Shown here: positions 54,162 through 61,122 of the stretch, piece after piece | How the letters are laid out: every line of letters begins with the position of its first letter | Numbering within the stretch: the stretch's first letter is position 1 | Source: an uncultured Parcubacteria group bacterium | Lineage (GTDB): Bacteria > Patescibacteriota > Minisyncoccia > UBA6257 > 2-01-FULL-56-20 | Reading direction: 5' to 3' | DNA length: 64,000 nucleotides | NCBI GenBank assembly: GCA_903944135.1 | Contig: CAJAQL010000006.1 | Location: 9,425 to 73,424, forward strand | Notes under the pieces: model-generated | Seen by the model: the letters and a program-made list of their open reading frames with translations, nothing else | Database searches by the model: none | Told to the model about the DNA's origin: nothing | Program-made: the position numbers and the translations under genes

Positions 54162-54635
54162 ATGTTTCAAAACACATACGAACAACGCAAGGGAGCTATC
54201 CGAGCCCGCATACATATCAACGATTACATGCGTCGCTATGCGTGGGAACTATTCAAGGGTAATCGACGACCCGTGATGAGAACGCTCTCGGACGCAGACT
54301 ATTATAAAAAGCTTTTCAGCGACCCTCTACACTCACCCATACGCTCAATGCTCGGCATCCCTTCCGGTGAGCTTTATAAATACTGCCAAGAGCTTGATTA
54401 TATCTCCTCAAACCTCGGTAGGGGTTTTATCTTCTATTTCATCTGCACTTGGTGCACTCGGAGGGTGAAATGCCTCTATGTTGACGAGAGTCTTGAGGCA
54501 ATGCTCTGCCGAAAATGTATCAAGCTTCCTTATCGACAGTCATCACGACCCGAACGGTACGCTTCGCGTTATATTCGGAGGCATCCAGAGCTGGTAAAAC
54601 GCTTAATTGATTCTGGCGAAATTCCTATTTATTGA
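54162..54635 (+). CDS. Hypothetical basic protein with a zinc-ribbon-like Cys cluster (island cargo)
   Basis: CTWCTRRVKC…CRKC; low GC. Confidence 0.5.
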   Translation: MFQNTYEQRKGAIRARIHINDYMRRYAWELFKGNRRPVMRTLSDADYYKKLFSDPLHSPIRSMLGIPSGELYKYCQELDYISSNLGRGFIFYFICTWCTRRVKCLYVDESLEAMLCRKCIKLPYRQSSRPERYASRYIRRHPELVKRLIDSGEIPIY

Positions 54636-54711: not shown

Positions 54712-55560
54712 ATGGAGAAAGTTGAAATTGAAATAGAGTACGATGGTAAAGACGTAGAAGACGGAACTATGTCCTTAGAGGATATGATTCCAGCTCTACA
54801 AGGGCTGTCCAGCGCATATGGGAAGATTGCGATACTTCAAAATCCTGAGGCGCGTCATAATTTGCGAGTTACGGGAGTTGGAAAAGGAACATTCCATATT
54901 CTTATAGAAGCATGGAATCTAGCCGTTCAGAATAAGGATGGAATAATGCTTGCGGCGGCGATGACGGGAATAGCAGAGCCTTCCTTTAAGGTTGTGAAAG
55001 CGATAATTGGCGTAGCTACGACGACAAAGCACGTACAAAATAAGCCTTATACGGAAAAGATAAACGGAGTACAGCAGAGTATTACGATAACCAACTGTGA
55101 AAATGTCACCCTAGAAGTACCGTTGGAAATCTATCAGATTTATAAAGACGGCATGATAAAACAAGACTTGAATAAAATTACTGGATCGCTCGCGGAAGGG
55201 AAAATTGATAGTACCACTCTTAAAGCGAAATCAGAAAAAGAAAGCATAGAGGAAAAAATAACCTTGTCGGAGAAAAAGTTTTTTGAGGTAGAGGAAATCG
55301 TTACTACGGTTACAAAGGAAATGTGGCTTACGGGAGTTTTGAACTCTCTCGCAAAATCTACTAACCGAGGCAGCTTTTATCTCAACGACGGAACACGAGT
55401 ATCTTATCATTTGGGAGGCGATAATCCAGAAAAATTGTATCAGTTCTTTATTTATAAAGGGATAGTGCGAGTGAAATGTACGGCTTCCTTGGACGAGAAT
55501 CTAAAGCCAATACAAATCGAGATTTTGGAGATAAATCAGGTTGAACAACCACTTTTGTAG
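54712..55560 (+). CDS. Hypothetical 282-aa protein (island cargo)
   Basis: Co-directional 76 nt downstream of the previous gene; no recognised motif. Confidence 0.5.
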   Translation: MEKVEIEIEYDGKDVEDGTMSLEDMIPALQGLSSAYGKIAILQNPEARHNLRVTGVGKGTFHILIEAWNLAVQNKDGIMLAAAMTGIAEPSFKVVKAIIGVATTTKHVQNKPYTEKINGVQQSITITNCENVTLEVPLEIYQIYKDGMIKQDLNKITGSLAEGKIDSTTLKAKSEKESIEEKITLSEKKFFEVEEIVTTVTKEMWLTGVLNSLAKSTNRGSFYLNDGTRVSYHLGGDNPEKLYQFFIYKGIVRVKCTASLDENLKPIQIEILEINQVEQPLL

Positions 55561-55593: not shown

Positions 55594-56967
55594 TTAATTC
55601 GTTGATTGAGCGGCCAAGGTATAGGCTTGGATATATCCAATCCCCGCCGTGAGTCCAGATTCTCCGAGCGTCGGGATACCTAAAATACATGGCCCCTTGT
55701 TCAAGATAGCAACACCACCAGAATTGCCATGGTCGATTGCTGCGTTGGTTTTATAGATTGGGCCGGGAAGAATCCCGCTTATGATTCCTTGGGTTACGGT
55801 TTCTGAAATACCGAGAAGATTGCCGGAGCTAGGATAGCCAAATATGGTAACAGTGTCTCCAACATTTACATTAGAACATCCTGAATGTGGAAATTCTGGC
55901 AGATTGTTAATGGCGGGAATAGGACTCAATGTAACTGACGACGGAAGCGGCGTATCGAGAGCAAAAATAGCAGCGTCCTCGTATGTATTTGGGTTATAAT
56001 GAGAATCGATTAAAGCTAACTTATAGTCTCCATAGCCTTCGTTATAACCAAAGTTTGGAGGCTCAGGATATACGGCGTAACAAGCAGGCAATGGCCCACC
56101 TTGGCTTGCCAATTCTGCTTCTGCAAGAACGTGAAAATTCGTTTCAATATCTATATTAGTTGAAGCAATGTTCTTGGTATTCGAACGAAATGAAACACCC
56201 GATCCACTGACCACAACGCTTGAATTAGATGCGTAGCAATTTATTTCAACGATAGTTGGCTCGATTTGATTAATAAGAGATGGCGTAAGGCCCTCGCTTG
56301 CGTTCAGTGAAGTATTTTGAGGCTGCTGAACGGTTGGCGACGAGTTCTGTTGTGATTGCGGTGCGCTATTGTTGCTGGACGTTGTAAAACTTAATGAAGA
56401 TAAAAATGTGTTCTCTAACTGCTGATCTTCTTGTCCTTCCCAATAAAAATAATCAAGCATGTATAAATCATTTCCCTTCAATACATCCATTCCTGATTGA
56501 TATAGAATCGGCTGTGATTGATCAACCTGATTGGAGCTAATATATTTTATGGCCGGGTAGCCCTTAAAGGTTGTTAAACTCGAAGAAACAACTTTGGAAC
56601 CGCCGGAAGTCCCGGTGTATTGAAGCTCGGCTTCAAGATCGGCATCGGCGGACGCGGCTGAACCAGCGAATGCGGATGCAATGTGAGTCGCCTCAAGAGA
56701 GGGATTATTTATACCGTTACCAATACTCCCCCAAGAATAATTGTCATCAGATACGCTATTCCCCTTTGTAAGCTCTTGAGAGGCTGAGGAGTAAGTCGGC
56801 TGATCGGGGAAATAAACGGAGAAGCTGCCATGCTCCAAATTATAACCTTGACCTCCGTTAGCGCTACTGGAAGAATTTTCGGAGATAATAACAACGCCCC
56901 AAATAATAAATGCTACTATTCCTAGACCTATCCAAACTCCTTTGTACGATTCTTTTGCTTCCGGCAT
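55594..56967 (-). CDS. Membrane-anchored trypsin-like serine protease (S1/S1C-like)
   Basis: N-terminal TM, S/N/Q-rich linker, catalytic-triad context NFHVLAEAE (His), AIFALD (Asp), and TNAAIDHGNSGGVAIL (GNSGG Ser motif, as in HtrA TDAAINPGNSGGPL). Confidence 0.7.
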   Translation of the reverse strand: MPEAKESYKGVWIGLGIVAFIIWGVVIISENSSSSANGGQGYNLEHGSFSVYFPDQPTYSSASQELTKGNSVSDDNYSWGSIGNGINNPSLEATHIASAFAGSAASADADLEAELQYTGTSGGSKVVSSSLTTFKGYPAIKYISSNQVDQSQPILYQSGMDVLKGNDLYMLDYFYWEGQEDQQLENTFLSSLSFTTSSNNSAPQSQQNSSPTVQQPQNTSLNASEGLTPSLINQIEPTIVEINCYASNSSVVVSGSGVSFRSNTKNIASTNIDIETNFHVLAEAELASQGGPLPACYAVYPEPPNFGYNEGYGDYKLALIDSHYNPNTYEDAAIFALDTPLPSSVTLSPIPAINNLPEFPHSGCSNVNVGDTVTIFGYPSSGNLLGISETVTQGIISGILPGPIYKTNAAIDHGNSGGVAILNKGPCILGIPTLGESGLTAGIGYIQAYTLAAQSTN

Positions 56968-56981
56968 GGGTGATGTGTGGG

Positions 56982-57704
56982 CTATTCGCTTTGAATATCA
57001 TTCGCCTCTTTTTCTGCGGAAGCGACGCACTCATTCGCCTTCTCTTGCGCTTGGAGACCTTGTACTCCACCCGCTTCGCTTAGATTGGAAGAAGAAGAAC
57101 ATTCTTCATTTTGTGATTGTTCATATTCAATCTGGGATTCGATGCTCGCACCAACAGAGCGGGCTTGATCAATCTTCTGTTGCGCCTCTGCATTTTGCAA
57201 AGTGATTTGAGCAGCTTGCAATAAGGGATTGTAAAGCGCACTCAATAGATTTTGCTCTCCCGTATATTCACTCATACCAGTTCCCGCCCCAACTGTTGCT
57301 CGGAGTTGAGCATAGCGCGTTTGCAGACTATATAGATTTTGTGTTGAGTTATTTATCGCCTCACTGTCAAAGCTGAGATAGCTCTCGTTTGCGAATTGCG
57401 TTTGCTGATCCAAAATAGTAGGCGTTGGACATCCTGCCGGAACTAATGATAATTGGCTCGCGTTGATAATTTCTGAGGGGCAGTTGGAGGGCGTAGAAAC
57501 GATTGTGTTTGGTTGGGATGTGGATTGAGACGTTGAGCTCGATGAATTAACTGAGGGTGAAGTATTTGATTGTAGCGCTTGAGTAGCCATACTGATCGCT
57601 TGGGTGGCAAGGGTCTGTGCCTGCGCACTATTGGCCGTACTGGGGTTTGAAAGCAGCGTCAAAACAAGTTGGAGAAGAACAACTATTGAAGATAAATTTG
57701 CCAT
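56982..57704 (-). CDS. Secreted low-complexity S/T/Q/N-rich protein
   Basis: Signal peptide MANLSSIVVLLQLVLTLLSNPSTANSA, then an S/T/Q-rich region and a Q-rich coiled C-terminus. The start is at the Met at 57704. Confidence 0.55.
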   Translation of the reverse strand: MANLSSIVVLLQLVLTLLSNPSTANSAQAQTLATQAISMATQALQSNTSPSVNSSSSTSQSTSQPNTIVSTPSNCPSEIINASQLSLVPAGCPTPTILDQQTQFANESYLSFDSEAINNSTQNLYSLQTRYAQLRATVGAGTGMSEYTGEQNLLSALYNPLLQAAQITLQNAEAQQKIDQARSVGASIESQIEYEQSQNEECSSSSNLSEAGGVQGLQAQEKANECVASAEKEANDIQSE

Positions 57705-57949
57705 GATATTTTTATTAAAATTTTTATTCCATGGCGTGGAGATCGGCCTCAATAACACAAAACTCCACGCTGTGCCTGAGCCTTGCGGCTCCATAGCCCT
57801 TTCGAGCCATGACCCTAGACGAGTGGCCAAACGTGGAGTTTGGTATCGTCTAGGGTGTTTCGCGCCATGCCCTGATTGCTCAAAGATTTAGGCGACTTAT
57901 ATTAAGTTGTGCTTTCAATGTAACATCGTTCCGACGACTTGTTAAGTCG

Positions 57950-58789
57950 ATGGAAAAATGTCGAAAAATGTCGGATAATAAAGTAACTACGGTGGACTAT
58001 AAAAAAATCGGCCTGCGATATAGAGAACGTTTAGCAACGCTTCGCGCTACGCCAGATTTTGATGAATTTTTGATCGAAACGATAAGACTCGATATGGAGT
58101 TGGAGCAATCGAGGAGAACCGACGGGTATAATTTCGAACCAGCAATTAAAATTCATATCGAGAAAATGCGCCTCATTGAAGGCCTGATTAAAAAATTCCA
58201 TTTGCCGCCACCTTTCCGCAACATCCTTGAAAACCCTTTTTATCCAGAAGCTAATGGCCTATACTTTGCACCTTATCGAATCGATCCGCAGGTTATCCCC
58301 GTTGCCAAAGGTGAATTTGAGCATCCACGCATTTCTGGCGAACCCCTCGATTCGTTAACGGTCACGATTTACGGCAGGCTTTCTACGGAAGATTGGGCTT
58401 CTCTAAAAGAACGTATTGAACGTTTGCAGGACGTAGCTTTCGATACCGAGGCGATTCATCCATTCCGACGTAGTAAAAATATCGATGAGAAGGTTAGAAT
58501 TGTTAAAGAAATGGCTACTCGAAAACCAAGGAGAGTCCGTAAAGAAAATGTCGAGCATAATTATATCGACATTCTTGAGAAATCAATGGGAAAATTATCC
58601 ATCTCAAAAAAGCGAGAGTTTTCTAAACTACATCCTTGGAGCGTGCGAAAGGTTATCGAGAATGGCAGGAGCAGTGCAGATGTGGCCTCACAACTCGGTC
58701 GGCGTAGCAAATCAAAAGATAAGGGCGCTGCTGTCCGAAAGACGCTTTCGCGCTTCAAGAATGCAAAAAAGCGGACAAAAGCACCATAG
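57950..58789 (+). CDS. Hypothetical 279-aa protein with a basic C-terminus (island cargo)
   Basis: No motif recognised; Lys/Arg-rich tail. Confidence 0.5.
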   Translation: MEKCRKMSDNKVTTVDYKKIGLRYRERLATLRATPDFDEFLIETIRLDMELEQSRRTDGYNFEPAIKIHIEKMRLIEGLIKKFHLPPPFRNILENPFYPEANGLYFAPYRIDPQVIPVAKGEFEHPRISGEPLDSLTVTIYGRLSTEDWASLKERIERLQDVAFDTEAIHPFRRSKNIDEKVRIVKEMATRKPRRVRKENVEHNYIDILEKSMGKLSISKKREFSKLHPWSVRKVIENGRSSADVASQLGRRSKSKDKGAAVRKTLSRFKNAKKRTKAP

Positions 58790-59133: not shown

Positions 59134-59286
59134 ATGGACAAAGAGACGATCAGTAAGGTTATGCGGGAAATGGGGCGGCGCGGAGGGCTTGCGTCCGTAA
59201 ATGCTCGTAAGAAAAGCGGGAAGATGAAGGAGTGGTCTCAAAACGCTATAAAAGCTCGCCGCCGAAAAAAGAATAAAAAAGCATGA
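59134..59286 (+). CDS. Candidate 50-aa basic micro-protein translationally coupled to the recombinase
   Basis: MDKETISKVMREMGRRGGLASVNARKKSGKMKEWSQNAIKARRRKKNKKA. Its TGA stop overlaps the recombinase ATG (ATGA at 59283-59286). Confidence 0.4.
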   Translation: MDKETISKVMREMGRRGGLASVNARKKSGKMKEWSQNAIKARRRKKNKKA

Positions 59287-60863
59287 GCGAACTCAACGCC
59301 ATAATTTACTGCCGCGTCTCGTCGGAACGACAAAAGAACGAGGGTCACGGTCTCGACGGCCAAGAGCAACGTTGCCGTCTCTATTGCGGGCAAAAGCAAT
59401 ACAAAGTTGAGCGGGTCTTTAAGGACAGCTTCACAGGAGGCGGAGATTTTATGGAACGTCCGGCGATGGGAGACCTACTCGCCTACCTCGACAAGCATCC
59501 GCATCGGGATAATTACGTCGTCGTTTTTGATGACCTCAAGCGATTTGCCCGCGACACCGTTTTCCATTTGAAGCTCCGCCGCGAATTTAAGGCGCGGGGC
59601 GTTAAAGTGGAATGCCTTAATTACAAATTCGATGAATCCGAGGAAGGCGAGTTCATCGAAACCGTTTTAGCCGCACAGGGCGAGCTTGAGCGGAAGCAGA
59701 ATCGCCGCCAAGTAATTCAGAAGCAGAAAGCGCGTCTTGAGGCGGGCTATTGGCCTTTTTGCCCGCCGCCAGGCTATCGTCAGCCCAAAACAATGGCCCA
59801 TGGGAAGCTACTTACACCACACGAGCCAGAAGCGACGATGATAAGAATGGCCCTCGAAGGATTTGCGACAGATCGCTTCGAGACACAGGCGGATATGGCT
59901 CACTATTTGGGAGAACAAAATTTCGTCGGCAAAAGCAGAGTTCCCTTCCAGTTGGCGAATCGCTTATTGGCACGAGTTTGGATATATGCCGGATTTATCC
60001 AATATGAACCATGGGAAGTAATGAGGCGAGAAGGTCATCATCAGCCCCTCATTGACTTAGCGACCTATCACAAGATTTTGCGAAAACTCGAAGGTCGTAG
60101 CCCCATAAGGACAAGGGCGGATATGCGTGAGGATTTTCCTTTGCGCCACACCCGTATCGTCTGTAGTAACGGCCATCCTCTTACAGCCTCGTACACGACC
60201 AAAAAGAAGGGCTATAGGAAGCCTTATTATCGTTGTTCTAATAGGACTTGCCCCGAACATACCAAAAGCATCCCTGCTGAGCTTATATTGGCGCAATTCA
60301 AGGCTATGTTGCAGGAAATTCGCCCAAAGCCCCTTATTCTTAAAATCAGCGAAGCGATGCTCTATGAAAAATGGGAACGGCGCGTGGCCGAACGAGCCAA
60401 TAACGAAAAAAGGGAGGTTGGTGAAATTATAGGGATTCAAACGGAGATACGCGACCTCTCAAAGCTTGCACGAAAGGCAAGTAGTGAGCGCGTCCGGCGA
60501 GAGTATGAAAAGCAGATTGAGGAGCTTGCGGCGAAAGAGGAAAAATTAACAGAGAAAAACGATCCGGTGAAGAAGCCGAAAATCGAGTTTAGAACCGCTC
60601 TACAAATGGTGTTTGATTATCTAAAAGACCCATATACCAAGTGGGTTGAGGGCGATTTGAGCGAAAAAAATCTAGTGCTAAACCTCGTTTTTGAGGGTCT
60701 CGTTTTCTATGACCGAGGATTTGGATTTAGAACCGCTCCTTTGTGCCTTCCCTTAAGGGTTTTTGAGCATTTTACTACCTCTAAATTACAGGGTGTGGAG
60801 ACGGGCGGAATCGAACCGCCGTCTAGTAATGAAGCCAATGAGCCGTCTACGGGTGTAGTTTAA
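59283..60863 (+). CDS. Large serine recombinase (resolvase catalytic domain, recombinase domain, zinc ribbon)
   Basis: IYCRVSSERQ places the catalytic Ser in the resolvase N-domain. Long recombinase domain, Cys-containing zinc-ribbon segment (CSNGH…CSNRTCPEH) and coiled coil; 526 aa. Confidence 0.85.
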   Translation: MSELNAIIYCRVSSERQKNEGHGLDGQEQRCRLYCGQKQYKVERVFKDSFTGGGDFMERPAMGDLLAYLDKHPHRDNYVVVFDDLKRFARDTVFHLKLRREFKARGVKVECLNYKFDESEEGEFIETVLAAQGELERKQNRRQVIQKQKARLEAGYWPFCPPPGYRQPKTMAHGKLLTPHEPEATMIRMALEGFATDRFETQADMAHYLGEQNFVGKSRVPFQLANRLLARVWIYAGFIQYEPWEVMRREGHHQPLIDLATYHKILRKLEGRSPIRTRADMREDFPLRHTRIVCSNGHPLTASYTTKKKGYRKPYYRCSNRTCPEHTKSIPAELILAQFKAMLQEIRPKPLILKISEAMLYEKWERRVAERANNEKREVGEIIGIQTEIRDLSKLARKASSERVRREYEKQIEELAAKEEKLTEKNDPVKKPKIEFRTALQMVFDYLKDPYTKWVEGDLSEKNLVLNLVFEGLVFYDRGFGFRTAPLCLPLRVFEHFTTSKLQGVETGGIEPPSSNEANEPSTGVV

Positions 60864-61122
60864 CGAAAGTTAGACAGGTTTTGATCCGTAAGTGTCGCGC
60901 CAACCACAGGATCGTCGAATGGCGTTAAGTTCCCTTATATAAGACCGGCGATGGACCCAAGGAACCCGGATCCGCCGATCCCGACGTCGGTCAGCCGATT
61001 AGGCAAACGCGAACGCCGGAAGCTGCAACTTTTGTGTTGGCAGTTTAAATGATGCGACAAGTACGTCGTCGCCCACGACCCGCAAGCTCATGGAACATCA
61101 CTATCGAAGCCAGTGCGTCCCC
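60796..61122 (-). ncRNA. ssrA: tmRNA (ssrA)
   Basis: Minus-strand 5' GGGGACGCACUGGCUUCGAUAG… matches the tmRNA 5' consensus. Acceptor stem with G3·U70, T-arm GGCGG-UUCGAUU-CCGCC and 3' end CGUCUCCA (identical to B. subtilis ssrA). The tag reading frame is …CAG CUU CCG GCG UUC GCG UUU GCC UAA, giving …QLPAFAFA-stop; CCA is not encoded. Confidence 0.8.

What the first reader, a model, noticed from the sequence alone, without database searches (positions are those of the whole stretch)
55594..57704. Membrane-anchored trypsin-like protease paired with a secreted S/T/Q-rich low-complexity protein
Gene 55594-56967 has an N-terminal TM anchor, a low-complexity S/N/Q linker and a C-terminal S1-type protease domain (His in NFHVLAEAE, Asp in AIFALD, Ser in GNSGG). 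It has no PDZ domain, so it is not a standard HtrA. The adjacent co-directional gene encodes a signal-peptide protein made of S/T/Q/N repeats and a Q-rich coiled coil. The protein could be a substrate, an adhesin or a surface-layer-like partner. Both lie on the island.
Basis: partly seen in the sequence, partly recalled or inferred. Interest (0 to 1): 0.5.

Follow-up and report, generated by a model that had tools for sequence, protein, structure and literature searches.

The report
Phage-island surface protein and protease operon
On a small phage-derived island inserted in the tmRNA gene of a probable Patescibacteria (CPR) genome, a structured LOOT RNA is followed by a gene for an exported surface protein and one for a membrane-tethered HtrA-like protease without a PDZ domain; the same arrangement recurs on distantly related islands, so it is a real reusable module, but what it does is inferred, not shown.

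Summary
Both genes exist at the stated coordinates, on the minus strand. There is no PDZ. The triad is H279, D331 and S416; the Asp lies in YEDAAIF, not AIFALD. The 240-aa partner has a highly conserved N-terminal hydrophobic leader, an S/T/P-rich spacer without repeats, and a conserved Q/E/A-rich C-terminal domain with two Cys; a coiled coil is not verified.

LOOT is followed by a membrane-anchored S1C protease in 6 of 8 LOOT loci. A secreted Q-rich protein sits just upstream of the protease in 5 of 12 distinct protease loci, across Parcubacteria and Saccharibacteria elements. The pairing is facultative: the closest relatives of each protein occur alone.

Most likely this is an accessory cell-surface operon of a phage-derived integrative element, with protease and partner acting together outside the membrane. 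That mechanism is inferred. Novelty: new variant of a known kind. Interest is moderate.

The parts
55594..56967 (-). Gene for a 457-aa membrane-anchored, PDZ-less S1C serine protease
   Evidence: ORF. Pfam Trypsin_2 and Trypsin both above their gathering scores. 65 homologues, the best non-self hit at E 4e-158, from Patescibacteria-type metagenomes and MAGs.
56881..56937 (-). Single N-terminal transmembrane helix (aa 11-29). Topology is N-in, so the rest of the protein is outside.
   Evidence: Hydropathy maximum 2.57 and AF2 helix 9-28. Homologues carry a cytoplasmic DnaJ domain or zinc ribbon before the same helix, which fixes the orientation by inference.
56380..56850 (-).
56299..56379 (-). 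Low-complexity S/N/Q/P linker (aa 197-223)
   Evidence: pLDDT about 30. Variable in the alignment.
55612..56283 (-). Chymotrypsin-fold protease domain (aa 229-452). Triad codons: H279 at 56131-56133, D331 at 55975-55977, S416 at 55720-55722. Conserved Cys at 244, 296, 364 and 427.
56982..57704 (-). Gene for the 240-aa partner protein. The ATG at 57704 is the supported start; the stop codon is 14 nt before the protease ATG.
   Evidence: The longer TTG ORF to 57830, and the 270-aa version P0114 held by NCBI and ENA, would both start inside LOOT. All relatives start at the M-x-N-L-S-S leader.
57570..57704 (-). Conserved N-terminal leader module (aa 1-45: hydrophobic helix, N-P turn, amphipathic Q/A/T helix)
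   Evidence: 75-87% identical in proteins whose C-termini are unrelated. About 38 clusters among 1.84 billion representatives, always at the N-terminus. The DNA differs mostly at synonymous sites. No charged residue.
57393..57569 (-). S/T/P/Q-rich spacer with two Cys (aa 46-104)
   Evidence: Composition. No tandem repeats.
56985..57392 (-). Conserved Q/E/A-rich, probably helical C-terminal domain with invariant C202 and C226 (aa 105-240)
   Evidence: Alignments A7 and A8 with P0067 and the L018 365-aa protein. Its first half resembles a phage structural-module protein family (hhalign 93%). No PDB or Pfam match.
57778..57894 (-). LOOT RNA (Rfam RF03000)
   Evidence: 73.4 bits against a gathering score of 46.4, with the full model 1-121 matched.
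57758..57773 (-). 3' extension of LOOT: a G-rich box (CGTGGAG) plus a T-run. It is complementary to the apical 5' side of LOOT hairpin 2 (57832-57843).
   Evidence: Present in all 8 LOOT copies examined. 17-pair helix, 94% of cells paired, 8 pairs with compensatory changes; slid controls give 42-60% paired and 0-2 such pairs.
57895..57911 (-). Conserved promoter-like box (CACAAYTKAAT..AAGT) immediately upstream of LOOT
   Evidence: Conserved columns in A6. The promoter function is inferred. The consensus scan instead gave a weak -35/-10 candidate at 57945..57917.
57950..58789 (+). Divergent 279-aa gene between LOOT and the recombinase. In L004 and L021 a MerR-type regulator holds this position.
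   Evidence: No detectable sequence similarity among the equivalents, so the equivalence is positional only.
59283..60863 (+). Large serine recombinase of the island. Its 3' end overlaps the tmRNA 3' end.
   Evidence: Pfam Resolvase 87 bits plus Zn_ribbon_recom; PHROG integrase 201 bits. 41% identical to the recombinase at the same tmRNA site in L004.
60793..61122 (-). tmRNA gene (the integration target)
   Evidence: ARAGORN and Rfam, 106 bits.
54162..54635 (+). 157-aa Cys-rich protein, a recurrent neighbour of this protease family
   Evidence: Homologues lie next to the protease in L002, L003, L013 and the viral contig L027.
54712..55560 (+). LAPAL-motif putative phage structural protein, also matching the PADLOC candidate PDC-S42; convergent with the protease
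   Evidence: NCBIfam NF053583 75.5 bits (cut-off 60), PHROG 3243, and PADLOC PDC-S42 69 bits.

Best explanation
The locus is an accessory ('moron'-type) operon carried by a small phage-derived integrative element of about 8.8 kb, inserted by a large serine recombinase into the 3' end of the tmRNA gene of a probable Patescibacteria (CPR) bacterium.

Layout (shown unless marked):
- Transcription probably starts at a conserved box just upstream of a LOOT RNA (inferred).
- LOOT forms the 5' part of the transcript. It carries a covarying alternative helix ending in a U-run. That helix could stop transcription or let it run on into the genes (inferred).
- Gene 1 encodes an exported surface protein with three parts: a family-specific uncharged N-terminal leader or anchor, an S/T/P spacer, and a Q/E/A-rich C-terminal domain with two conserved Cys.
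- Gene 2 starts 14 nt later. It encodes a single-pass, N-in membrane protein whose outside part is a PsbP/DcrB-like binding domain, a flexible linker and an active S1C (HtrA/MarP-like) serine protease (H279, D331, S416).
- The PsbP-like domain sits in the position taken by PDZ domains in HtrA proteases; that it does their job of binding substrate or partner is inferred.

Most likely mechanism (inferred): the tethered protease and the co-exported Q-rich protein work together on the outer face of the membrane or in the cell wall. The protease either processes or turns over that protein, or is positioned by it. The element thereby remodels the host cell surface while resident.
For: Identity of the parts:
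- Protease family and fold.
- Catalytic triad.
- TM helix, and outside orientation from DnaJ or zinc-ribbon N-termini in homologues.
- Four conserved Cys in the ectodomain.
- PsbP-like fold.

Operon:
- The two genes are on the same strand with a 14-nt gap.
- LOOT lies 73 nt upstream of the partner ATG.

Recurrence in diverged elements:
- L004/L005: tmRNA, recombinase (41% identity), MerR, LOOT (95 bits), leader protein, TM-Trypsin_2 protease. The protease is only 36% identical over 109 aa, yet the leader is 87% identical.
- L018 (Parcubacteria): tRNA, LOOT, secreted TIG protein with the same C-terminal domain, zinc-ribbon protease.
- L016 (Saccharibacteria): LOOT, secreted PG-binding and Q-rich protein, a 113-aa gene, DnaJ-protease.
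- L015: secreted Q-rich protein 20 nt upstream of the protease.
- L013: LOOT, two genes, protease.
- L024: a scan by LOOT DNA pattern, independent of any protein query, found tRNA, recombinase, terminase, LOOT, then a TM protein with a charged helical region and a Trypsin_2 domain at 48 bits.

Phage origin:
- LAPAL protein.
- Terminase genes in L004 and L024.
- The protease on the 43-kb viral contig L027.
- Leader proteins as opposite-strand single genes inside phage structural modules in L008 and L009.
Against: - No direct evidence of interaction or cleavage.
- The pairing is facultative. L001, L002, L003, L012 and L017 have the protease without such a partner.
- L021 has LOOT and a leader protein with a shortened version of the C-terminal domain, but no S1C protease.
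- L010, L008, L009 and L011 have leader proteins alone.
- L023, the closest partner relative, shows neither LOOT nor a protease on its 1.2-kb contig.
- Most loci were found through one of the two proteins, so the tallies are biased.
- Signal-peptide status is atypical (no positive n-region), and no SignalP-type predictor was available.
- The U-run after LOOT may mean that LOOT is a separate sRNA and the genes have their own promoter.
- The window's own taxonomy is inferred from homologues and from synteny with L004, not read from a record.
Confidence: 0.45

Rival explanations
1. The two genes are independent cargo genes. The slot downstream of the LOOT promoter on these elements is a general landing place for envelope-acting accessory genes. 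The protease and the S/T/Q-rich protein each act alone, for example as a general extracytoplasmic protease and an adhesin, and sit together only because they share the expression cassette.
For: - Each protein family occurs without the other.
- The content between LOOT and the protease varies: nothing in L024, two unrelated genes in L013, one extra gene in L016.
- The partner's N-terminal and C-terminal modules are shuffled independently.
Against: - A secreted Q-rich protein is the immediate upstream neighbour in 5 of 12 distinct protease loci, across very divergent proteases (36-60% identity) and lineages.
- Among partner-like proteins whose downstream gene could be read, the protease follows 5 of 7 that carry a Q-rich C-terminal domain and 0 of 4 that lack one. 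The sample is small and biased.
- L024 fuses a helical charged segment to the protease itself.
Confidence: 0.3
2. The module is a superinfection-exclusion device. The exported protein displays a domain copied from a phage virion or ejection protein as bait. The tethered protease destroys the incoming phage protein, or a surface receptor, protecting the lysogen.
For: - The first half of the partner's C-terminal domain is homologous (hhalign 93%, 40% identity over 60 aa) to P0111 and P0105.
- P0111 is 63% identical to a 496-aa protein next to the SU10-type adaptor gene in phage contig L008.
- The module sits at the integrase-proximal end of prophage-like elements and among defence-type cargo: PDC-S42 in the window and a type I R-M system in L024.
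- Leader proteins behave like morons in phage genomes.
Against: - No PADLOC match for either protein beyond weak protease-domain similarity.
- The homology segment is short and compositionally biased.
- The function of the phage 496-aa protein is unknown; it has no PHROG match.
- Partners of the other Q-rich type (L004, L015, L016) were not shown to share this segment.
Confidence: 0.1
3. The protease is a dedicated leader peptidase or sorting enzyme that removes or recognises the conserved N-terminal leader of the partner family.
For: The leader is far more conserved than anything else on the islands: 87% against 36-41% identity. It is at the N-terminus of all ~38 related clusters that carry it. 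This resembles sorting-signal and processing-enzyme systems.
Against: - Partners in L015, L016 and L018 lack this leader and have ordinary signal peptides, yet are followed by the protease.
- Leader proteins in L008, L009, L010, L011 and L021 have no such protease nearby.
Confidence: 0.04
4. The protease is simply the host's housekeeping HtrA-type quality-control protease that happens to lie near an island.
For: S1C fold and GNSGG motif. The closest solved relatives are M. tuberculosis HtrA1, DegS and DegP.
Against: - It lies inside the low-GC island, between the recombinase and phage genes.
- Relatives sit on recombinase-bearing or viral contigs.
- There is no PDZ domain, and scores are far below the HtrA family cut-offs.
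- Its presence among related genomes is patchy (9 loci among 185,579 species genomes, using family-specific patterns).
Confidence: 0.06

Closest known systems
HtrA/DegP/DegQ/DegS proteases (MEROPS S1C, Pfam Trypsin_2)
   Same: Chymotrypsin fold, His-Asp-Ser triad, GNSGG motif and extracytoplasmic location. DegS is likewise anchored by one N-terminal TM helix (established knowledge; fold match).
   Different: No PDZ domain. 25 bits against a 416-bit cut-off for TIGR02037. A PsbP-like domain lies N-terminal to the protease instead. Carried by a mobile element. Oligomeric state unknown.
MarP (Rv3671c) of Mycobacterium tuberculosis
   Same: A membrane-anchored, PDZ-less S1 protease facing the periplasm that cleaves an envelope protein (established knowledge). 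It is a structural match, Foldseek rank 7, entry 3k6y.
   Different: MarP has four TM helices and no PsbP-like domain. NCBIfam MarP model: 17 bits against a 250-bit cut-off.
PsbP / Mog1 / DcrB / LpqN / Mtc28 fold proteins
   Different: 5-16% sequence identity and no Pfam match. Here the domain is fused to a protease; I know of no described fusion of this kind (from my own knowledge, not checked).
LOOT RNA (Rfam RF03000; Weinberg et al. 2017, PMC5737381; Rfam 14, PMC7779021)
   Same: Full-length match above the gathering score, in the window and in 7 related loci.
   Different: Rfam lists it as a metagenome-derived sRNA. The papers I could read give no function, and the 2017 supplement was not available. 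New here: its position at the head of this operon on tRNA- or tmRNA-integrated elements, and a covarying 3' helix with a U-run outside the Rfam model.
Prophage morons and lysogenic-conversion surface proteins (e.g. Ltp of phage TP-J34, Llp of T5)
   Same: Small exported proteins encoded near the integration module or on the opposite strand inside phage operons. Presumably expressed from the resident element.
   Different: No sequence relation. No lipobox. Paired with a protease. An exclusion function is untested.
tRNA/tmRNA-integrating genomic islands (Islander-type; PMC4383910)
   Same: The island abuts an intact tmRNA gene, with the integrase next to it.
   Different: The integrase is a large serine recombinase rather than a tyrosine one. 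Its coding 3' end overlaps the tmRNA 3' end. No displaced tmRNA fragment or direct repeat was found.

Membership tests
Peptidase S1, subfamily S1C / Pfam Trypsin_2 (PF13365) | Profile match above the curated threshold | tested here: met
   32.2 bits against 27.6; PF00089 23.5 against 20.6.
Peptidase S1, subfamily S1C / Pfam Trypsin_2 (PF13365) | Catalytic triad His, Asp, Ser in that order, conserved in relatives | tested here: met
   H279 and S416 are invariant. D331 is invariant in 13 full-length homologues and at least 90% conserved in 60. The His and Ser motifs align with M. tuberculosis HtrA1. Active-site geometry was not measured.
Peptidase S1, subfamily S1C / Pfam Trypsin_2 (PF13365) | Double beta-barrel chymotrypsin fold | tested here: met
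   Foldseek probability 1.0 to DegS, DegP and HtrA1, with target-normalised TM-score up to 0.74.
HtrA / Do family proper (TIGR02037 and equivalogs) | At least one C-terminal PDZ domain | tested here: not met
   No PDZ match in Pfam or NCBIfam. The protein ends at aa 457, shortly after the protease domain.
HtrA / Do family proper (TIGR02037 and equivalogs) | Whole-protein score above the family cut-off | tested here: not met
   25.2 bits against 416.
MarP family (NF033740) | Score above cut-off, and four N-terminal TM helices | tested here: not met
   17.2 bits against 250. Only one hydrophobic helix.
PsbP/Mog1/DcrB-like fold | Structural similarity of the middle domain to family members | tested here: met
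PsbP/Mog1/DcrB-like fold | Sequence-family membership (Pfam PsbP, DcrB, LpqN and similar) | tested here: not met
   No Pfam match at E <= 0.01 for aa 36-200.
LOOT RNA (RF03000) | Covariance-model score above the gathering threshold over the full model | tested here: met
   73.4 bits against 46.4, model positions 1-121.
Sec-type cleavable signal peptide (partner) | Hydrophobic h-region of 7-15 residues near the N-terminus | tested here: met
   IVVLLQLVLTLL; 15-residue hydropathy 2.53.
Sec-type cleavable signal peptide (partner) | Positively charged n-region and a small-x-small cleavage site | tested here: inconclusive
   No K, R, D or E in aa 1-45. A-N-S/A-Q-A is a possible site in the window protein, but relatives have N at position -1. 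No SignalP-type predictor was available.
Coiled coil (partner C-terminal domain) | Heptad periodicity of hydrophobic residues | tested here: inconclusive
   Crude 3.5-residue periodicity was not above shuffles (p 0.17-0.57).
Known anti-phage defence systems (PADLOC-DB 2.0) | Match of protease or partner to a defence-system model | tested here: not met
   Only weak protease-domain similarity to RT-Protease_XI (14.6 bits). The partner has no match.
Large serine recombinase integrative element | Resolvase catalytic domain plus recombinase zinc ribbon, adjacent to a tRNA or tmRNA target | tested here: met
   PF00239 87 bits, PF13408 24 bits, PHROG integrase 201 bits, and overlap with the tmRNA 3' end. 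The att sites were not mapped.

The most novel reading that the evidence does not exclude
LOOT is not a free-standing sRNA. It is a cis-acting structured leader, an attenuator or riboswitch-like switch between the Rfam fold and a covarying long-range terminator helix. It gates a phage-borne surface-remodelling operon in CPR bacteria. The operon's exported protein carries a domain copied from a phage virion protein and works with a tethered PsbP-domain S1C protease as a 'bait and cleave' superinfection-exclusion or host-interaction device.
Probability: 0.1. Interest if true: 0.8.

Novelty: new variant of a known kind. Interest (0 to 1): 0.5.

Why it matters
Patescibacteria (CPR) are mostly uncultured, and little is known about their mobile elements or cell-surface biology. 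This locus contributes three things:
1. A recurrent mobile-element module that gives an orphan Rfam RNA (LOOT) its first concrete genetic context, together with a testable regulatory helix.
2. An HtrA-like protease architecture in which a PsbP/DcrB-like domain takes the position of the PDZ domains.
3. A small family of exported proteins with an unusually conserved, uncharged N-terminal leader, shared between CPR phages and islands.

If the protease and partner do act together on the envelope, the module would be a candidate lysogenic-conversion or host-interaction factor in episymbiotic bacteria. As it stands it is a well-supported annotation with an inferred function, not a new principle.

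Tried and rejected
Searches that found nothing or could not run:
- Leader-based scans of GTDB genomes and IMG/VR found no confirmed relatives. The JGI metagenome scan gave only two short contigs.
- A profile search with the partner C-terminal domain found only the window protein itself and P0067 in the word-indexed database.
- tblastn of both proteins against 50,697 phage records gave no match.
- BFVD gave only generic trypsin-like hits.
- The afdb50 library was unavailable.
- The partner and its C-terminal domain gave no meaningful PDB match: none for the whole protein, and one chance-level hit (E 2.6, centromere protein U) for the domain profile.
- PADLOC gave no significant match for either protein.
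- Viral scans with the L004 and L024 proteases gave no new loci.

Attempts that stayed unresolved:
- A direct repeat or displaced tmRNA 3' fragment to fix the island's left end was sought by repeat search and short-word BLAST. Nothing better than chance was found, so the left boundary (about 52.0-52.6 kb) rests on gene content and GC.
- The divergent ~270-aa genes upstream of LOOT were tested for homology. They are not detectably related, except L016 with L003.
- Tandem Repeats Finder found no repeats in the region.
- The heptad test for a coiled coil was not significant.

Ideas rejected:
- A dedicated leader peptidase, rejected on distribution.
- A housekeeping HtrA, rejected on genomic context.
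Full report
**1. What is in the sequence**

Both genes lie on the minus strand.

ORF 55594..56967 encodes 457 aa:
- Residues 11-29 form the only strongly hydrophobic segment and are modelled as a helix.
- Pfam finds Trypsin_2 (32.2 bits, cut-off 27.6) and Trypsin (23.5, cut-off 20.6) in the C-terminal half, and nothing else.
- NCBIfam gives only sub-threshold similarity to DegP, DegS, DegQ, MarP and mycobacterial HtrA models, for example 25 bits against a 416-bit cut-off.
- No PDZ domain is present.

The catalytic residues come from alignments of 13 full-length and 60 total homologues:
- H279 (NFHVLAEAE) and S416 (GNSGG) are invariant.
- D331 (YEDAAIF) is invariant in the 13 and at least 90% conserved in the 60.

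An AlphaFold model (mean pLDDT 79.5) matches DegP, DegQ, DegS, HtrA1, MarP (3k6y), the S1C domain of RsgI9 and the staphylococcal Spl proteases. By sequence, the closest solved relative is M. tuberculosis HtrA1 (E 5e-8).

**2. The "linker" is mostly a folded domain**

- Residues 40-196 are modelled at pLDDT about 90 as a beta-rich alpha-beta sandwich.
- They are conserved in the full-length homologues P0002-P0013.
- There is no Pfam match.
- Only aa 30-39 and 197-223 are disordered low-complexity segments.

Homologues place a DnaJ domain or a zinc ribbon before the same TM helix. A J-domain must be cytoplasmic. From that, and from four conserved Cys in the ectodomain (C244, C296 and C427 invariant; C364 at least 90% conserved in the 13 full-length homologues), I infer that the PsbP-like and protease domains are outside the membrane.

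**3. The partner**

From the ATG at 57704, the adjacent gene (56982..57704) encodes 240 aa. Its stop codon lies 14 nt before the protease ATG. It has three parts:
- aa 1-45: a hydrophobic helix, an N-P turn and an amphipathic Q/A/T helix, with no charged residue.
- aa 46-104: an S/T/P/Q-rich spacer with two Cys and no tandem repeats.
- aa 105-240: a Q/E/A-rich domain with invariant C202 and C226.

The C-terminal domain is conserved in P0067 and in the 365-aa protein of L018, at 54-56% identity with the window domain (53% over 136 aa by BLASTP).

A full HMMER scan of 1.84 billion representative proteins found 47 relatives:
- About 38 share only the leader, which is always at their N-terminus.
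- Their C-termini are unrelated: TIG, Ig-like, LamG-like or Cys-rich.

The leader is 87% identical between the window and L004, although the DNA differs mostly at synonymous sites. Selection therefore acts on the peptide.

The coiled-coil label is not verified. NCBI and ENA hold a 270-aa version of this protein (P0114), whose start would lie inside the RNA described next.

**4.

Rfam finds a full-length LOOT RNA (RF03000, 73.4 bits, cut-off 46.4) at 57778..57894 on the same strand, 73 nt upstream of the partner ATG. A conserved promoter-like box precedes it.

**5. Context**

- Right of the operon lie a divergent 279-aa gene and then a large serine recombinase (59283..60863). The recombinase's 3' end overlaps the 3' end of an intact tmRNA gene.
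- Left of the operon lie a LAPAL-motif putative phage structural protein that also matches PADLOC candidate PDC-S42, a 157-aa Cys-rich protein, an alpha/beta-hydrolase-like gene and a 174-aa gene. Host LexA follows.
- GC falls to 0.41-0.45 between 53 and 59 kb.

So the pair lies on an island of about 8.8 kb. I could not map its left att site.

**6. Relatives**

| Locus | Arrangement |
|---|---|
| L004/L005 (same host synteny: IF3, bPH_2) | tmRNA, recombinase (41% id), MerR, LOOT (95 bits), leader protein with a different Q-rich tail, TM-Trypsin_2 protease (36% id over 109 aa), small terminase |
| L013 (Ca. Taylorbacteria) | tRNA, recombinase, ..., LOOT, 219-aa gene, 197-aa TM protein with a paralogous PsbP-like domain, protease |
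| L016 (Saccharibacteria) | LOOT, 476-aa secreted protein with PG_binding_1 and a Q-rich C-terminus, 113-aa gene, DnaJ-protease |
| L018 (Parcubacteria) | tRNA, LOOT, 365-aa secreted TIG protein ending in the window partner's C-terminal domain, zinc-ribbon protease |
| L015 | Secreted Cys-knot and Q-rich protein 20 nt before the protease; no LOOT |
| L021 | tRNA, recombinase, MerR, LOOT, leader protein with a short C-terminal variant; no S1C protease |
| L010 | LOOT and a leader protein, then a convergent gene |
| L008, L009, L011 | Leader proteins alone in phage contexts; in L008 and L009 they are opposite-strand single genes |
| L001, L002, L003, L012 (closest protease relatives) | No partner and no LOOT. 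L002, L003 and L013 also carry the 157-aa neighbour. |
| L027 (43-kb viral contig) | Protease at the contig start (58% id; upstream sequence missing), followed by the 157-aa neighbour |

A scan of IMG/VR by LOOT DNA pattern, independent of either protein, gave one true LOOT, L024. Its layout is tRNA, recombinase, terminase large subunit, ParB-methylase, LOOT, then directly a 299-aa protein with a TM helix, a charged helical segment and a Trypsin_2 domain (48 bits).

Tallies:
- LOOT is followed by a membrane-anchored S1C protease in 6 of 8 LOOT loci.
- A secreted Q-rich protein is the upstream neighbour in 5 of 12 distinct protease loci.

These counts are biased, because most loci were found through one of the two proteins.

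**7. Interpretation**

The identity of the parts is secure. The functional link between protease and partner is an inference from three things:
- recurrent adjacency across very diverged versions;
- operon structure;
- a shared extracytoplasmic location.

I put it at about 0.45. The main rival, independent cargo genes sharing a LOOT-headed expression slot, gets about 0.3. A leader-peptidase role is contradicted by the distribution of the two families. A housekeeping HtrA role is contradicted by the genomic context.

One more adventurous reading is not excluded. The first 60 residues of the partner's C-terminal domain resemble P0111 and P0105 (hhalign 93%). P0111 is 63% identical to a 496-aa protein beside the adaptor gene of phage contig L008. 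The exported protein could therefore mimic a virion protein, as part of superinfection exclusion.

**8. LOOT side finding**

In all eight copies the Rfam model is followed by a G-rich box and a T-run. This box is complementary to the apical 5' side of LOOT hairpin 2.
- On an 8-sequence alignment, the 17-pair helix is 94% paired and 8 pairs show compensatory changes.
- Slid controls give 42-60% paired and 0-2 such pairs (a first test on 6 copies is).
- It is the minimum-free-energy structure in six of the eight copies (five of the first six).
- It excludes the inner part of hairpin 2.

Either it is a terminator that ends an sRNA, or it is one state of an attenuator. A further downstream box complementary to the G-box is visible in several copies but was not tested.

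The papers I could read give no function for LOOT. The 2017 supplement was not available, so I cannot say what its authors noted about gene context.

**9. Verdict**

The protease is a new architectural variant of a known family, embedded in a recurrent LOOT-headed module on phage-derived elements of CPR bacteria. Interest is moderate (0.5). The mechanism remains inferred.

Noticed in passing
window 57758-57773 (-) with 57832-57843 (-); also L004, L010, L013, L016, L018, L021, L024: LOOT has a conserved 3' extension outside the Rfam model: a G-rich box plus U-run that pairs with the apical 5' side of hairpin 2. The helix has 17 pairs, 94% paired, with 8 compensatory pairs. It competes with the inner stem of hairpin 2 and looks like a terminator or one state of a switch.
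   Followed up: yes
window 57725-57745 (-); L010, L021, L023 downstream of the U-run: A further conserved box (GGCCGATCTCC...) after the U-run is complementary to the G-box (window GTGGAG/CTCCAC; L010 CTGGC.GGAG/CTCC.GCCAG). This suggests a three-element arrangement. L023 keeps this box and the G-box but has no LOOT.
   Followed up: partly
window 56982-57830 (-): NCBI and ENA hold a 270-aa version of the partner (P0114), and the longest ORF starts at a TTG at 57830. Both starts lie inside the LOOT RNA. All relatives begin at the M-x-N-L-S-S leader, so the ATG at 57704 is the likely start.
   Followed up: partly
window 54712-55560 (+): The gene convergent with the protease is a LAPAL-motif putative phage structural protein (NCBIfam NF053583, PHROG 3243). 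It also matches the PADLOC candidate defence model PDC-S42 (69 bits).
   Followed up: no
window 54162-54635 (+); L002 2852-3373, L003 6364-6837, L013 10514-11035, L027 825-1301: A 157-aa Cys-rich protein (C-x2-C ... C-x2-C) with no family match is a recurrent neighbour of this protease family. It is usually convergent with the protease, including on a 43-kb viral contig.
   Followed up: partly
window 60793-60863; L004 3055-3125; L021 90-130; L013 1898-1906: In several elements the 3' end of the large serine recombinase gene overlaps, in antisense, the 3' end of the tmRNA or tRNA gene it sits beside. No direct repeat or displaced tmRNA fragment marks the other end of the window's island.
   Followed up: partly
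window 60795-61122 (-): ARAGORN predicts the unusual tmRNA tag peptide ANTKVAASGVRVCLIG, which does not end in the usual Ala-Ala. This may be a mis-set reading frame or a lineage peculiarity.
   Followed up: no
L008 8672-10162 (-); P0105, P0106, P0111: G/Q/N-rich proteins of 415-496 aa ending in GxxFGxFF, encoded next to the SU10-type adaptor gene of a CPR phage. They share a 60-aa segment with the partner's C-terminal domain and have no PHROG match.
   Followed up: partly
L024 8153-11803: The LOOT-headed block on this IMG/VR element continues, after the protease and two unknown genes, into a small helix-turn-helix-like gene, a 250-aa unknown and two large genes. From their sequences these two look like type I restriction-modification subunits (no family search was run). 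This would fit a cargo or defence region.
   Followed up: no
L021 4547-5104 (-): The island that has LOOT and a leader protein but no S1C protease instead carries a 185-aa retropepsin-like aspartic protease (Asp_protease_2, 32 bits) on the opposite strand.
   Followed up: no
P0002, P0004, P0005, P0007-P0010 C-termini; L014 5351-6445; L018 7602-9278: Many proteases of the family end in Cys-rich repeats (C..C..GY.WN....C). In L014 the same repeats form a separate secreted protein just upstream of the protease.
   Followed up: no
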